Below, in pieces: positions 11,321 to 33,452 of a stretch of 64,000 nt of DNA. The position numbers were made by a program, and so were the translations under genes. The stretch is from Promethearchaeota archaeon (lineage in GTDB: Archaea > Asgardarchaeota > Lokiarchaeia > Sigyniarchaeales > SOKP01). Every line of letters starts with the position of its first letter. Position 1 is the first letter of the stretch. Under the pieces are notes generated by a model. That model was not told the DNA's origin and ran no database searches. It saw nothing but the letters and a program-made list of their open reading frames with translations. The stretch is taken from contig JBHLOC010000002.1 in assembly GCA_048940925.1 (NCBI GenBank), positions 32,001 through 96,000 on the forward strand. Direction: 5' to 3'.

Positions 11321-12653
<1,333 letters not shown>

Positions 12654-18983: not shown

Positions 18984-20945
18984 ATGAAATCCTTAAACAA
19001 ATTTAAGTGTTATTTTTTAATTTTTGTAGTTTTTATTTCGGTATCTAATGTGTTTACTTTTTGCATGAGTTATAGTCAAATTCATGAATATTCAAAGCAA
19101 ATACCAATAGAAAAAACACTATTTTCAAATCCTCTATCTTCTTGGAATTTAGATGGCAATATTATATGTGATTCAGATAATATCCAAGAAAACCAGCAAA
19201 TATGCAGGGATGGATTTGGCGGTGCAATTATTGTATGGCAAGATTTTAGAAATGGTTCTCAATACGATATATATGCTCAGCATATAAATGCTGAGGGTAA
19301 TATTGAGTGGTTGCCTAATGGCATACCAGTCTGTACGAATGAATATAGTCAAATTAAACCTCAAATTTGTAATGATGGAACAGGAGGTGCAATTATTGTA
19401 TGGGAGGATAAAAGAGGTCAGAGTGGGACGAATTCTAACATTTATGCTCAGCGAATAAATTCAACTGGTGGTGTTGAGTGGATTGCTAATGGAACACCCA
19501 TTTCCACCACGATAAATAATGATAAATATAATCCTCAAATTTGTGCCAATGAGTCTGGAGGGGCAATAATGACCTGGGAATCTACGATTAATAATGAAAT
19601 TTACGCCCAAGCGATTGATTTAGACGGAAATGTCCAGTGGGCCACTAATGGTGAACTAATAGCTACTTTTGATTATAGAGGGGAACCTAAAATTTGCAGT
19701 GATGGAGCGGGAGGGGCTATTATTATATGGGAAGAGGGATTTTTGTCTGATTTAAATATTTATGCTCAGCGGATAAATTCAACTGGTGAGATTGAATGGA
19801 CACCTACAGGTGAACCTATATGTACAAAAGCAGAGAACCAGGAACATCCTCAAATTTGCAGTGATGGGGCTGGAGGAGCCCTAATAGCTTGGGAAGATAA
19901 TAGAGATATAGATTTTTTTGGCAGAGATATTTGGGCTCAACGGATCGATGCTAATGGAAACAAATTATGGGGAAGTAATGATGTTGGAGCATGCAGGGAG
20001 GATTATAATCAATATGAACCTTTTATTTGTAATGATGGTTCTGGAGGTGCTTATATCGTGTGGAGAGACGCAAGAACTACAGGTAGTGATATATACGCTC
20101 AGCGAATAGCTCCAAATGGAGAAAGACAGTGGAGAGTTGATGGCTTAGCTATATGTGATATGGTTGCTCATCAAGGATCTGCTAAAATTTGTAGCGATGG
20201 TTCTGGAGGGGCAATTATCGCATATCGAGGTTATGATCATTCTTATGGTTATGATGATATTTTCATTCAAAAAATTGATTCTAACGGAGATCATCAATGG
20301 TCTCATTATATAGATGATATAGGTTGGAATACAGATGAAATACCTGTATGTAAGGCATCTGGAGACCAATTTTCTCCTCAAATTTGTAGTGATGACGATG
20401 GTGGGGCTGTAGTTGTATGGAAAGATTATAGAAGCGGATCAGGTGGAGATATTTATGCTCAACATATAAGGAGCGCCCCTCCAACTTCTGAACGCATTAA
20501 TTTGATTGAAACCCATTCAGATGATACATATAATTTATATTATGTTTTATATGATGACCATGGGGGTGGAAAATATCGAATATTGGTAGAAGATCCAAAT
20601 GAAACTCAATATTTATATATAAATTGGGCTACATGGAATTCAGAAGTTAATTTAGATATACCAATTAATCGTACTATACAAGGTGATTTTATTTATACGA
20701 TTGAATATTATGATGATCATGAACAATTTGGTTATCCGGATTCATTTACAGTAAGGATAACACCACCCTATTCTGATGATGATGGAAATGGCGGCGATGA
20801 TGGCGGTGATGATGGTGATAGCAATGGTGACGGCGATGGAAATGGTAATGGAGGAGGTATAATTCCAGGATATAATATATTATTTTTGATTGGAGCTATT
20901 TGTATTTCCTCTCTATTTTTTACAAAAAAAAGGAGGAAGCAATAG
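18984..20945 (+). CDS. secreted repeat (probable beta-propeller) surface protein with IPGY anchor
   Basis: About seven repeats of PQICSDGxGGAIIVWED.R...DIYAQRI...G...W; D/G/N linker; IIPGY, TM helix, KKRRK. Confidence 0.8.
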   Translation: MKSLNKFKCYFLIFVVFISVSNVFTFCMSYSQIHEYSKQIPIEKTLFSNPLSSWNLDGNIICDSDNIQENQQICRDGFGGAIIVWQDFRNGSQYDIYAQHINAEGNIEWLPNGIPVCTNEYSQIKPQICNDGTGGAIIVWEDKRGQSGTNSNIYAQRINSTGGVEWIANGTPISTTINNDKYNPQICANESGGAIMTWESTINNEIYAQAIDLDGNVQWATNGELIATFDYRGEPKICSDGAGGAIIIWEEGFLSDLNIYAQRINSTGEIEWTPTGEPICTKAENQEHPQICSDGAGGALIAWEDNRDIDFFGRDIWAQRIDANGNKLWGSNDVGACREDYNQYEPFICNDGSGGAYIVWRDARTTGSDIYAQRIAPNGERQWRVDGLAICDMVAHQGSAKICSDGSGGAIIAYRGYDHSYGYDDIFIQKIDSNGDHQWSHYIDDIGWNTDEIPVCKASGDQFSPQICSDDDGGAVVVWKDYRSGSGGDIYAQHIRSAPPTSERINLIETHSDDTYNLYYVLYDDHGGGKYRILVEDPNETQYLYINWATWNSEVNLDIPINRTIQGDFIYTIEYYDDHEQFGYPDSFTVRITPPYSDDDGNGGDDGGDDGDSNGDGDGNGNGGGIIPGYNILFLIGAICISSLFFTKKRRKQ

Positions 20946-21164
20946 TTTTACTTATCTAAATAATATATTTTTTCTTTTTATAAATTAAAAAACCATTAAT
21001 TTCTAATTATTTTTTTTAATCTTGATTTCAATTAAATTATAATTGCTTTTTCCTAACCCTATATCTTAAGCTCAAAAAATATTTTAACACTAATTCATAC
21101 TATTAATATATTAAATAAATAATATAATAGCTTAAAAAAAAAAGAAAAATAGGAAGGTATTTTA

Positions 21165-21426
21165 ATGGCCCGCTGTCCAGAAAGTTTTTTTGTATTAACA
21201 ATTTAACATGGAATGCGGAGGGTTTATGAAATACCATTCAGCTATAAAACAAGTCGTCTGTCAATCATGTGGACTGTCTTTAACGAGACATGAATTAGAT
21301 GGGTATTGGAAAAAGGTGAGGGATGAAAATATTACAGAAGCAGATGATACGCAGCAAAAGAAAAATCGTAGAAAAGAATGGCTTGAATGGTATTCGTCAT
21401 CCAAATCTGATAAGGAGAATTATTAA
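21165..21426 (+). CDS. small zinc-ribbon protein split by a 31-nt insert: join(21165..21182, 21214..21426), 76 aa
   Basis: Spliced product MARCPECGGFMKYHSAIKQVVCQSCGLSL has both CxxC pairs. SD-like AGGAAGGT lies before ATG 21165. Confidence 0.82.
21183..21213 (+). other. putative 31-nt BHB-type mRNA intron in the zinc-ribbon gene
   Basis: CCAG-AA|A-GUU...AAC-AUGG-AA|U with exon stem CCCGCUGU/GCGGAGGG. Confidence 0.75.
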
Positions 21427-21498
21427 GAGTAGAAATAGTATATAATTCTAAATAATCAGACAATTCTATTTAGAATAAGTAAATTGATTAATTATATA

Positions 21499-22692
21499 TT
21501 ATTTACCATAAATTCTTTCAATAATATCTTCTAATAATTCTGCTAATTTTTTAGATGGGATATCTAATAAAGTAATTTCTAGATGTCTTCCTCTAGTGGC
21601 GTCTTCAATTCGCACCGTTTTTGAAGCAATGATTTTTAGTTGGTTAAGTTGACGTATATATTTTCTAAAACTCATTTTAACATGTGGTTCTACCGAATAA
21701 TTCTCACATATTACCTTATACTCTTCATACGCGTCATCAACAAGGGTAAATGGAGTATCAGTGTTTATCAATGATCTGGTAATTCCATACAAGGCTAAAA
21801 GCTCCTGATCTTTTAATTCATCAATAATATCATTTCTAAAAGTAGGATATACATCATCTGATGCTTCTCTTATGATATCTGGTGAAATTGAGCTTAAACC
21901 TTCTTTATCGCAATATAAACCGCTTTTTCTTAATATTTCAATCCCGTGTCTCATATTTTTATGTTCTACAACTATTTGGGAAATCATAGTTAGTAACTCA
22001 TTATCAATAACATTTTCTTTAAGAGCTAATTCACTACGATATGTTAGAATTTGCAATGATTCATCAAAATTATATGGTTTAAGCTTTATTTTTTCATTTA
22101 ATCTACTTAAAATTCTTTCATTTTCAATTCGCATCCAATCCTTATTACGACACACTAACAATATTGATAACTTAGCATTTTGATGTCCAAACGTCTCTGC
22201 AATATCAAGAAATGCTAAAACTTCGTCAGGTTTTAAAAGATGAATTTCATCTATTATCAACAACATATATCCTTGGTCCCGAATTAATTGAGAGAGAATC
22301 AATTTTAATGCTTCATCATCTGAAAATCCACGTCCTGAACCATGTTGATATTTTGCGAGAAGCTCCCTGATTATCTTACTTTTAGAGCGAAAATTAATGC
22401 AATTATAATATTCAATAAAAAGATTGACATCTTTTTCAGTAGCAATCGTTTTAAAATTTCTACCAAAATATCTTGCGGTGCATGTTTTTCCAACCCCTCC
22501 CCTTCCTAATATTAAACAGTTGATAGAGGGCTGTTCCTCCTCTTCAACTATTCTTCTATAATTAAAAATTAAAGTTTTAAGAGCATCATCTCGGCAATAT
22601 AACTTATCTGGAACCCAACTCAAATCAAGAGTTCCAGCTCTTCGAAACACTGATTTTTTCCCAAATTCTTTTCTAAAGGCATCCTCGTCCAT
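21499..22692 (-). CDS. cdc6: Orc1/Cdc6 replication initiator
   Basis: VPDKLYCR, Walker A GRGGVGKT, YYNC, Walker B IIDEIH, C-terminal winged helix ending RGR. Confidence 0.92.
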   Translation of the reverse strand: MDEDAFRKEFGKKSVFRRAGTLDLSWVPDKLYCRDDALKTLIFNYRRIVEEEEQPSINCLILGRGGVGKTCTARYFGRNFKTIATEKDVNLFIEYYNCINFRSKSKIIRELLAKYQHGSGRGFSDDEALKLILSQLIRDQGYMLLIIDEIHLLKPDEVLAFLDIAETFGHQNAKLSILLVCRNKDWMRIENERILSRLNEKIKLKPYNFDESLQILTYRSELALKENVIDNELLTMISQIVVEHKNMRHGIEILRKSGLYCDKEGLSSISPDIIREASDDVYPTFRNDIIDELKDQELLALYGITRSLINTDTPFTLVDDAYEEYKVICENYSVEPHVKMSFRKYIRQLNQLKIIASKTVRIEDATRGRHLEITLLDIPSKKLAELLEDIIERIYGK

Positions 22693-33121: not shown

Positions 33122-33452
33122 GAGACGAGTGAGATATGGAGCTGACGGTGGGTTTAACCTGCTGAGGAACCTCGCCCCACACTCCAAGCAAGGTGTAGAA
33201 AACTACTATGATGAGAATCATATTTTAGCAACTGAAACGACACTGCCTTCTTACAGATATTAATGACCTGGAAATAAGCCAGAGAAATTGTAGGAGGGAA
33301 TGGTTGGAACGAGCTAAAACCTTGGTGCAAGGCCAAATGAAAGTTATGAGGCACTTGGAACGAACTTTAGGTAGGCCGCATAGTTGGATGCTCCAACTGG
33401 CACTTGGTGACGAGTGCAGTACAGAAGGGCGGGTATATATCTCAAGCGTCTC
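33122..33452 (+). ncRNA. rnpB: archaeal RNase P RNA
   Basis: GC-rich island. P1 GAGACG..TGAGATAT pairs with ATATCTCA..CGTCTC. CR-I GAGGAACC-U-CGCCC pairs with CR-V ACAGAAGGGCGGGUA, forming P4 with the bulged U. Internal ACTGAAACG and GGAACG elements are present. Confidence 0.93.

What the first reader, a model, noticed from the sequence alone, without database searches (positions are those of the whole stretch)
21165..21230. Second 31-nt BHB-type intron, inside the CPEC knuckle of a small zinc-ribbon gene
Seen: after SD-like AGGAAGGT the gene reads ATG GCC CGC TGT CCA GAA [AGTTTTTTTGTATTAACAATTTAACATGGAA] TGC GGA GGG TTT ATG AAA. Unspliced, it stops at TAA inside the insert. The ORF-track product (MECGG...) has only three of the four Cys. 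Removing 21183..21213 gives MARCPECGG...VCQSCG, a complete zinc ribbon. Fold: exon stem CCCGCUGU/GCGGAGGG with one G.A mismatch; central CCAG/AUGG (3 bp plus G.A); bulges AA|A and AA|U; intron stem GUU/AAC plus UUGU/ACAA. The repeated GAA allows four equivalent junction registers, and the BHB geometry selects one of them. Inference: a second spliced mRNA. The internal ATG at 21208 could give a truncated 3-Cys product from unspliced RNA.
Basis: partly seen in the sequence, partly recalled or inferred. Interest (0 to 1): 0.88.

Follow-up and report, generated by a model that had tools for sequence, protein, structure and literature searches.

The report
tRNA-type mini-intron in Asgard zinc-ribbon gene
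A 31-base hairpin splits the first zinc-binding motif of a small gene in an Asgard (Loki-type) archaeon; comparison with 48 sister species shows it behaves like an intron that must be cut out of the mRNA by the tRNA-splicing enzymes, a process so far documented inside only one archaeal protein-coding gene (cbf5).

Summary
ATG GCC CGC TGT CCA GAA (21165-21182) is followed by a 31-nt insert (21183-21213) carrying a TAA stop. TGC GGA GGG... then continues to 21426 in another frame.

- In the same genus, 33 of 49 orthologs are uninterrupted (MARCPECGG...). The other 16 carry a 28-, 29- or 31-nt insert at exactly the same GAA|TGY junction.
- All 13 orthologs from other families of the order are uninterrupted.
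- In intron-bearing alleles both exons stay under purifying selection. Exon 2 has dN/dS 0.085, against 0.087 in intronless alleles. Exon 1 has 0 nonsynonymous and 149 synonymous pairwise differences.
- No alternative start codon is conserved, and three alleles have none.
- The junctions fold as a relaxed bulge-helix-bulge motif: 3 of 4 central pairs, with both flanking helices. The interior hairpin changes sequence but keeps pairing.
- The genome encodes two EndA paralogs (alpha-like and beta-like) and RtcB.
- Presence of the insert is patchy on two gene trees, which implies repeated exact loss.

The scan had already noted this intron in other genomes, and other candidate mRNA mini-introns in this genome. 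I class it as a new member of the cbf5-type kind; splicing itself is inferred.

The parts
21151..21158 (+). Shine-Dalgarno-like AGGAAGGT, 6 nt upstream of the ATG
   Evidence: A GGTATT core at the same distance is kept in most genus orthologs, with or without the intron.
21165..21182 (+). Exon 1: ATG GCC CGC TGT CCA GAA = MARCPE, which supplies Cys4 of the first CPEC zinc knuckle
   Evidence: All 16 intron-bearing alleles encode MARCPE, with 0 nonsynonymous and 149 synonymous pairwise differences.
21183..21213 (+). 31-nt intron (type 1) with an in-frame TAA at 21204-21206; absent from 33 same-genus orthologs
21214..21426 (+). Exon 2: TGC GGA GGG ... TAA, 70 codons plus stop; it holds Cys7, Cys22 and Cys25 and a long C-terminal helix
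   Evidence: dN/dS is 0.085 in intron-bearing alleles.
21169..21176 (+). 5' strand of the outer exon-exon helix h (CCCGCUGU). It pairs with 21215-21222 (GCGGAGGG): 7 pairs and one G.A mismatch
   Evidence: 89% of cells paired across alleles, with variation only as C-G/U-G or G-C/G-U.
21177..21180 (+). 5' strand of the central helix (CCAG, exon). It pairs with 21208-21211 (AUGG, intron 3' end): C-G, C-G, A-U, G.A
   Evidence: Type-2 alleles have CUGA instead, giving C.A, C-G, A-U, G-C. One metagenomic allele has CCGG, which keeps the pair as G-U.
21181..21183 (+). 5' bulge AA|A; the inferred cut lies between 21182 and 21183
   Evidence: This register is fixed by alleles L002 and L038. Cleavage itself was not observed.
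21184..21207 (+). Intron-internal helix h' (GUU 21184-86 with AAC 21205-07) and hairpin (UUGU 21190-93 with ACAA 21198-201)
   Evidence: G-C and U-A next to the bulge are invariant in 19/19 distinct alleles. The hairpin stem differs between lineages with double changes.
21212..21214 (+). 3' bulge AA|U; the inferred cut lies between 21213 and 21214
   Evidence: The bulge reads AU|U in L002, UU|U in L038 and AG|U in L012.
21499..22692 (-). Convergent neighbour orc1/cdc6, syntenic throughout the genus; context only, used for the tree

Best explanation
The insert is an archaeal bulge-helix-bulge (tRNA-type) mini-intron inside the coding sequence of a 76-aa zinc-ribbon protein. In the pre-mRNA, codons 2-6 of exon 1 pair with the first codons of exon 2 (outer helix) and with the 3' end of the intron (central helix). 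This leaves two 3-nt bulges on opposite strands, followed by an intron hairpin. The heteromeric splicing endonuclease (the EndA alpha-like and beta-like paralogs of this genome) would cut after the second base of each bulge (21182|21183 and 21213|21214). RtcB would join the exons to give ...CCA GAA|UGC GGA..., so that translation yields MARCPECGG... with a complete C4 zinc ribbon.

Shown here:
- the insert and its exact position;
- its presence/absence polymorphism at one junction;
- selection on both exons in intron-bearing alleles;
- the conserved relaxed BHB and a co-varying hairpin;
- the presence of EndA and RtcB genes.

Inferred: cleavage, ligation and the enzymes responsible.

The intron most likely arose once at the base of the 44-species crown group of the genus. 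It was then lost exactly several times, possibly through spliced-RNA-derived copies or allele exchange. This history is inference.
For: (1) Same-site polymorphism. 16 of 49 genus orthologs carry inserts of 28, 29 or 31 nt between GAA and TGY; 33 are uninterrupted. All 13 orthologs from other families are uninterrupted.

(2) Coding constraint on both sides of the insert in intron-bearing alleles. Exon 2 has dN/dS 0.085, against 0.087 in intronless alleles. Exon 1 has 0 nonsynonymous and 149 synonymous pairwise differences. Cys4 and Cys7 are invariant in the family.

(3) Every allele is broken if unspliced. There is no conserved alternative start, and L003, L005 and L037 have none.

(4) Structure. 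84-86% of cells are paired, against 23-45% when partners are slid. Hairpin pairs show double changes in 3/3 pairs, with a covariation score of 0.212 against 0.115 in shuffles (0/500). Only 1-5 of 8799 alternative windows score as well. All 16 genus alleles with the intron keep CCAGAA, whereas intronless alleles use CCN GAR freely. One metagenomic allele has CCG, which keeps the pair as G-U.

(5) Enzymes. There are two EndA paralogs; one has the Tyr/His/Lys pattern and one lacks it. One RtcB is present. Asgard EndA is reported as the broad-specificity (alpha-beta)2 type (PMC5829648).

(6) Distribution. The intron is patchy on both the Cdc6 tree and the exon-2 tree, with at least 5 changes forced. 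Intron sequence features track host clades.
Against: No RNA evidence: no spliced read, circular intron or peptide was available.

The central helix has only 3 of 4 pairs in every allele. A preprint on Asgard tRNA introns warns that this relaxed class arises by chance at many boundaries (10.64898/2026.10.13.758758).

Single-sequence folding is not significant, and RNAalifold on the MAFFT alignment did not recover the motif.

The junction helices lie in coding sequence and hardly vary, so they give almost no covariation. The covariation figures come from a model-fitted alignment, which leans towards the structure.
Confidence: 0.8

Rival explanations
1. The insert is a tolerated disruption. It is not removed, and a shortened protein is made from a downstream or intron-internal start (Met at 21208 in this allele, or Met11, the 66-aa product that gene callers report).
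For: The window allele has an ATG at 21208 that gives a 72-aa ORF. Public annotations of intron-bearing alleles list 66-aa proteins starting at MKYHS.
Against: The ATG at 21208 exists only in the three type-1 alleles; other alleles have scattered or no starts. Exon 1 and codons 7-10 remain under strict coding constraint in intron-bearing alleles, which would make no sense if they were untranslated. A product starting at Met11 lacks two of the four invariant Cys.
Confidence: 0.07
2. The insert is removed from the RNA, but by a mechanism other than EndA and RtcB, for example an unknown nuclease/ligase pair that recognises the hairpin.
For: The BHB is relaxed and never has four central pairs. No cleavage assay exists.
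Against: The geometry fits EndA rules on each strand (4 central nt, then a 3-nt bulge, then a helix), with the cut after the second bulge base in the only register allowed by L002 and L038. EndA and RtcB are present. No other system that removes ~30-nt inserts from archaeal RNA is known to me.
Confidence: 0.06
3. Translational recoding: the ribosome bypasses the insert (take-off at GAA, landing at the downstream GAA, as in phage T4 gene 60) or shifts frame.
For: In the window allele a GAA precedes both junctions, 31 nt apart, so a hop would give the same protein.
Against: The matching landing codon exists only in L001. The others have GAT, GTT, AAA or AAG before exon 2. The insert length varies (28, 29, 31, 32 nt) and is unrelated to frame.
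Confidence: 0.03
4. The intron-bearing alleles are pseudogenes, inactivated by a small insertion.
For: The frame is broken in each of them.
Against: The 16 species alleles and the metagenomic alleles examined keep intact exons of constant length, with dN/dS 0.085, the same as intact alleles (0.087). No second lesion is seen.
Confidence: 0.02

Closest known systems
cbf5 pre-mRNA intron of Crenarchaeota (Watanabe et al. 2002 FEBS Lett 510:27; Yokobori et al. 2009, PMC2738675)
   Same: A short BHB-type intron inside a protein-coding sequence. It must be removed to give a functional protein. It is linked to hetero-oligomeric splicing endonucleases. Its distribution is patchy, with secondary losses that the authors discuss as possibly mediated by spliced mRNA.
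   Different: The host gene differs (a 76-aa zinc-ribbon protein of unknown function, not a pseudouridine synthase). So does the lineage (Asgard, Loki-type, rather than Desulfurococcales/Sulfolobales). The intron lies 18 nt after the start codon. The central helix is always 3 of 4 pairs. Splicing of cbf5 was shown experimentally; here it is inferred.
BHB intron in the 5' UTR of HVO_1309 mRNA, Haloferax volcanii (Schwarz et al. 2020, PMC7714728)
   Same: An mRNA substrate of the archaeal splicing endonuclease outside tRNA and rRNA.
   Different: That intron lies in the untranslated leader and does not interrupt a reading frame. It was shown by endA knock-down and in vitro cleavage.
Non-canonical tRNA introns of Asgard and TACK archaea (relaxed hBH / HBh' motifs; PMC5829648; preprint 10.64898/2026.10.13.758758)
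   Same: The predicted enzyme is the same, (alpha-beta)2 EndA with broad specificity. The size range and motif grammar are the same. Persistence only where exon sequence allows the motif is also shared: here the Cys-Pro-Glu-Cys-Gly-Gly codons are self-complementary even in intronless alleles.
   Different: The host RNA is an mRNA, so splicing decides the reading frame and has to compete with translation of a start codon 18 nt upstream.
Unconventional HAC1/XBP1 mRNA splicing in eukaryotes (Ire1 cleavage, RtcB or Trl1 ligation)
   Same: Both remove a small, frame-changing intron from an mRNA by a protein endonuclease followed by tRNA-ligase-type joining (from my own knowledge; RtcB's role in HAC1 splicing is cited in the reference list of PMC5829648).
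   Different: The nuclease (Ire1) and the recognition motif (two 7-nt loops) differ. No homology is implied and none was tested here.

Membership tests
Archaeal BHB (EndA-spliced) intron | [quoted passage not shown] | tested here: inconclusive
   3 of 4 pairs in all 19 distinct alleles. Type 1 has C-G, C-G, A-U, G.A; type 2 has C.A, C-G, A-U, G-C. This is the relaxed class, not the canonical one.
Archaeal BHB (EndA-spliced) intron | Two 3-nt bulges on opposite strands, each 3' of its central-helix strand, with cuts at symmetric positions that give the functional junction | tested here: met
   The bulges are AA|A and AA|U (variants AA|U, AU|U, UU|U, AG|U). Cutting after the second bulge base gives CCA GAA|UGY in every allele, and this is the only possible register in L002 and L038. 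Geometry was checked from sequence only.
Archaeal BHB (EndA-spliced) intron | Flanking helices h (exon-exon) and h' (intron-intron) of at least 2 contiguous pairs | tested here: met
   h has 3-4 contiguous pairs and 5-7 of 8 overall. h' has 2-3 contiguous pairs plus a hairpin. Only 1-5 of 8799 other windows are as good.
Archaeal BHB (EndA-spliced) intron | Structure maintained in evolution (pairs kept through substitutions) | tested here: met
   86% of cells are paired, against 23-45% when slid. Hairpin pairs change on both sides in 3/3 pairs, and 0/500 shuffles reach the observed score (on a model-fitted alignment). The junction helices vary only on one side.
Archaeal BHB (EndA-spliced) intron | Splicing endonuclease of broad specificity and RtcB ligase encoded by the genome | tested here: met
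   PF01974 hits at C58:74241-74465 (102 bits) and C18:73532-73780 (70 bits). These give ORFs of 198 and 200 aa; only the first shows the Tyr/His/Lys pattern. RtcB lies at C40:219876-221183 (556 bits). The alpha/beta assignment is my reading of motifs, not an assay.
Archaeal BHB (EndA-spliced) intron | Excision and exon ligation observed in RNA (spliced transcript, circular intron, or in vitro cleavage) | not testable with these tools
   No RNA run was listed for this stretch, so read laying could not be used.
[quoted passage not shown] | The interrupted gene is functional only after exact removal, and intronless orthologs exist | tested here: met
   33 uninterrupted orthologs in the genus and 13 outside it. 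Stops or a frame break occur in all unspliced alleles. Selection is equal on the exons of both allele classes.
C4 zinc ribbon (TFIIB/TFS-like) | Two CxxC knuckles on a three-stranded ribbon | tested here: met
   C4, C7, C22 and C25 are invariant. The AlphaFold model has pLDDT 85-91 over residues 1-40. The best PDB matches are zinc ribbons of TFS4, RPA12, PriA and TFIIB, with rmsd about 1 A over 29 columns but E>=0.15. No Pfam or NCBIfam family reaches its cut-off, so no specific family is assigned.

The most novel reading that the evidence does not exclude
This intron is one member of a genome-wide layer of endonuclease-spliced mini-introns in protein-coding genes of Loki-type Asgard archaea. 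These introns would be gained at sites whose codons happen to allow a BHB, and removed again exactly, perhaps via spliced RNA. If so, the closest prokaryotic relatives of eukaryotes have an active intron gain-and-loss cycle in mRNAs that runs on the tRNA-splicing machinery. The position 18 nt after the start codon could make expression depend on a race between splicing and translation initiation.
Probability: 0.5. Interest if true: 0.9.

Novelty: new member of a known kind. Interest (0 to 1): 0.72.

Why it matters
Introns inside archaeal protein-coding sequences were, in the literature I could search, known only for cbf5 in Crenarchaeota (PMC2738675), with one further case in an mRNA leader (PMC7714728).

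This case sits in Asgard archaea and comes with a natural experiment: 16 interrupted and 33 uninterrupted orthologs within one genus. That allows direct study of how such introns arise, what exon context they need and how they are lost exactly.

There is also a practical consequence. Gene callers mis-annotate the interrupted alleles as 66-aa or frame-extended proteins that lack the first zinc knuckle. Proteomes of these genomes are therefore systematically wrong wherever such introns occur.

Tried and rejected
- RNA evidence: the look-up of sequencing runs (kind rna) listed no holder for 20950-21500, so no reads could be laid. None was listed, which is not the same as none existing.
- RNAalifold on the plain MAFFT alignment gave only a trivial 3-pair hairpin in exon 1, because the interior hairpins of different intron types are not alignable by sequence.
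- Single-sequence folding z-scores are weak.
- Rfam found only RNase P in the window. ARAGORN found no tRNA in the window.
- blastn-short of all 16 introns against the whole genome found no other copy beyond chance AT-rich matches, so this is not a repeated mobile element by sequence.
- Pfam and NCBIfam gave no family over cut-off for the protein. Foldseek against PDB gave no match at E<=0.001.
- Alternative BHB registers shifted by 1 or 2 nt give 1/4 or fewer central pairs in type-2 alleles (hand analysis sequences), so they were rejected.
- Microhomology-mediated deletion between the GAA(A) repeats would leave an extra A in type-2 alleles. It therefore does not explain the exact losses (reasoned).
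- Literature searches for Asgard mRNA BHB introns found nothing.

Full report
**What is in the sequence.**
- AGGAAGGT lies at 21151-21158 and the ATG at 21165.
- Six codons, ATG GCC CGC TGT CCA GAA, end at 21182.
- A 31-nt A+T-rich insert occupies 21183-21213.
- TGC GGA GGG TTT ATG AAA starts at 21214 and runs to the stop at 21424-21426.

Read straight through, the first frame ends at a TAA inside the insert, giving MARCPESFFVLTI*. The mechanical ORF list instead reports a 72-aa ORF from an ATG at 21208 (MECGG...), which has three cysteines. Deleting the 31 nt gives a 76-aa protein, MARCPECGG...VCQSCG.

The window belongs to an archaeon. It has an archaeal RNase P RNA at 33126-33448 and a convergent orc1/cdc6 gene at 21499-22692. 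Named database homologs of the small protein are from Promethearchaeota, Lokiarchaeota and "Hermodarchaeota" metagenome bins, so this is a Loki-type Asgard lineage.

**The decisive comparison.** A six-frame search with the 72-aa ORF found the gene in 36 of 41 relatives and in 49 of 54 genomes of the genus. I fetched every locus and read the 5' ends.
- Thirty-three genus orthologs are uninterrupted: ATG GCN CGN TGY CCN GAR TGY GGN GG, i.e. MARCPECGG (MSRCPECGG in a basal clade).
- Sixteen carry an insert of 28, 29 or 31 nt at exactly the same place, between GAA and TGY.
- All 13 orthologs from other families of the order are uninterrupted.
- In an alignment of 30 full-length family members, C4, P5, E6, C7, C22, S24 and C25 are invariant.
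- An AlphaFold model (mean pLDDT 78; 85-91 over the first 40 residues) shows a zinc ribbon followed by one long helix.
- Its nearest PDB neighbours are the zinc ribbons of TFS4, RPA12, PriA and TFIIB, none at a significant E-value.
- No Pfam or NCBIfam model reaches its cut-off. The protein's function is unknown.

**The interrupted alleles are not decaying.**
- Among the 16 intron-bearing alleles, exon 2 has dN/dS 0.085. This is indistinguishable from the 0.087 of the intronless alleles.
- Exon 1 shows 149 synonymous and 0 nonsynonymous pairwise differences; all 16 encode MARCPE.
- Codons 7-10 (CGGF/L) also vary almost only synonymously.
- There is no conserved alternative start in the exon-2 frame. 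Three alleles (L003, L005, L037) have no ATG, GTG or TTG at all between the upstream stop and Cys7. The ATG at 21208 is peculiar to the three type-1 alleles.
- Exon 1 is therefore still read in its own frame and still belongs to the same protein, which requires exact removal of the insert.
- Ribosomal bypassing is unlikely. Only the window's allele has the same codon (GAA) before both junctions; the others have GAT, GTT, AAA or AAG.

**The structure.** With the junction fixed by the coding comparison, each strand reads helix, four central nucleotides, three-nucleotide bulge, helix. This is the BHB grammar as defined in the Asgard tRNA-intron preprint.

In the window:
- outer helix 21169-21176 with 21215-21222 (7 pairs and one G.A);
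- central CCAG with AUGG (3 pairs plus G.A);
- bulges AA|A and AA|U;
- inner GUU/AAC followed by a UUGU/ACAA hairpin.

The commoner type-2 introns end ...AAC CUGA AA|U. Their central helix is C.A, C-G, A-U, G-C, again three of four pairs but with the mismatch at the other end. This is a relaxed motif, and the same preprint warns that relaxed motifs are easy to find by chance when boundaries may slide.

Here the boundaries may not slide. Alleles L002 (...GGAU|UGC) and L038 (...GGUU|UGC) allow only one register. With that register fixed, only 1-5 of 8799 other windows within +-400 nt match the observed combination of central, outer and inner pairs (seven alleles were scored before the script stopped on a truncated locus).

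Across alleles:
- 84% of cells pair, against 25-45% when the partners are slid by 1-3 columns.
- After realignment to a covariance model that includes the hairpin, and with five metagenomic alleles added, 86% pair against 23-45% slid. All three hairpin pairs show changes on both sides. The covariation score is 0.212 against 0.115 in shuffles, reached by 0 of 500. That alignment is fitted to the structure and leans towards it.
- At least seven different hairpin stems occur: UUGU/ACAA, GGC/GCC, GGCU/AGCC, CUU/AAG, UUGCA/UGCAA, GCAUU/AAUGU, CAU/AUG.
- All 16 genus alleles with the intron keep CCA GAA, whose A pairs with the intron's U, while intronless alleles use CCT, CCC, CCG, CCA and GAG freely.
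- One metagenomic allele has CCG GAA, which keeps the pair as G-U.

Weak points remain. Single-sequence folding energies are not significant. RNAalifold on the plain alignment fails. The junction helices are coding and nearly invariant, so they carry little covariation.

**Enzymes.**
- The genome has two EndA-domain genes (102 and 70 bits).
- Their ORFs are 198 and 200 aa. The first shows the Tyr/His/Lys pattern; the second lacks it. I read this as catalytic alpha plus structural beta.
- One RtcB is present (556 bits).
- Kaneta et al. (PMC5829648) report that Asgard archaea have the (alpha-beta)2 enzyme with the L1 loop that confers cleavage of relaxed motifs.
- From memory, Yoshinari et al. 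2006 linked cbf5 pre-mRNA cleavage to hetero-oligomeric endonucleases. That paper appears in the reference list seen, but I did not read it.

**History.**
- On a maximum-likelihood tree of the neighbouring Cdc6 protein, the intron is absent from the basal five-species clade and scattered through the 44-species crown group. Well-supported branches force at least 5 changes and parsimony needs about 10.
- A tree of exon 2 alone gives the same picture.
- Intron features follow host clades. For example, L020, L055 and L057 share ...GUAC|CUGAAA, and the GGC/GCC hairpin is shared by four subclades.
- I therefore infer one gain followed by divergence and several exact losses.
- Slippage between the GAA(A) repeats would leave an extra A in type-2 alleles and so does not explain exact loss. 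Replacement by a spliced-RNA-derived copy, or by an intronless allele, is the natural alternative; the former was discussed for cbf5.
- The intron sequence is not repeated elsewhere in the genome.

**Comparison with what is known.** Full-text searches found no report of BHB introns in Asgard protein-coding genes. Schwarz et al. 2020 state that cbf5 was the only mRNA BHB intron reported until their 5'-UTR case in Haloferax. The present intron meets the tests for a cbf5-type intron except two: the strict four-pair central helix, and any RNA observation (see the membership table). I file it as a new member of that kind, with splicing inferred.

**Relation to earlier notes of this scan.** The scan had already flagged the same intron in another genome (the MARCPESFFVYTN* allele, which matches my L002). 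It had also flagged many other candidate mRNA mini-introns in this genome. I used these as leads only. Of them I checked the purA case in this window by reading it: TGG GGA G|31 nt|AC GAA GGA AAA GG restores WGDEGKG, with a GGGG/CCCC central helix.

**Verdict.** I put 0.8 on an EndA/RtcB-spliced intron. What is missing is RNA or enzymatic evidence. Interest is 0.72: it is a clean, polymorphic example of a rare phenomenon in the lineage closest to eukaryotes, and it has practical consequences for annotation.

Noticed in passing
window 12583-12613 (minus strand): The other 31-nt insert, in purA: TGG GGA G|tttagcaaagcaaatcgcatactaaccccat|AC GAA GGA AAA GGT. Removing it restores WGDEGKG. Central helix GGGG/CCCC, bulges AG|U and AU|A. 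It has no sequence similarity to the zinc-ribbon intron.
   Followed up: partly
P0008, P0009, P0033, P0040, P0076 and others; L072-L076: Public gene calls for intron-bearing alleles are truncated to 66-67 aa (start at Met11), or are extended through the intron in the wrong frame (P0005, P0015, P0042, P0063). Contigs behind P0076 and P0009 carry introns of 32 and 29 nt at the same site.
   Followed up: yes
L012 and L015 (G014, G016), exon 1: The CGA arginine codon creates an ATG in the exon-2 frame (cgATGcccagaa). Reading through the intron then gives MPRKLAACCLYLKCGG..., which NCBI annotates as an 83-aa protein (P0005). The Cys-Cys comes by chance from the hairpin. This looks like an accident, not a conserved product.
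   Followed up: partly
G000 C58:74241-74465 (-) and C18:73532-73780 (+); L063, L064: Two EndA paralogs of 198 and 200 aa. Only the first shows the catalytic Tyr/His/Lys pattern, which is consistent with an (alpha-beta)2 splicing endonuclease.
   Followed up: partly
whole genome G000 (ARAGORN run): Many tRNA genes are interrupted, often with long or several inserts that ARAGORN models poorly. This fits the reported heavy intron load of Asgard tRNAs.
   Followed up: no
window 18984-20945 (+): A 653-aa protein with a signal-like N-terminus, about ten repeats of a ...C(S/N)DG(A/S)GGAII(V/A)W(E/Q)D... unit, a Gly/Asp-rich linker and a C-terminal hydrophobic anchor. No Pfam family reaches its cut-off.
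   Followed up: no
L069 1822-2947 (G069:C18): In one species about 1.1 kb, with two small minus-strand ORFs (135 and 85 aa), is inserted between the zinc-ribbon gene and cdc6. In the other genomes these two genes are about 70 nt apart.
   Followed up: no
intronless alleles, e.g. L004 1486-1520: The outer helix can form even without the intron, because the codons for Ala-Arg-Cys and Cys-Gly-Gly are mutually complementary. The site was therefore BHB-permissive before any insertion.
   Followed up: partly
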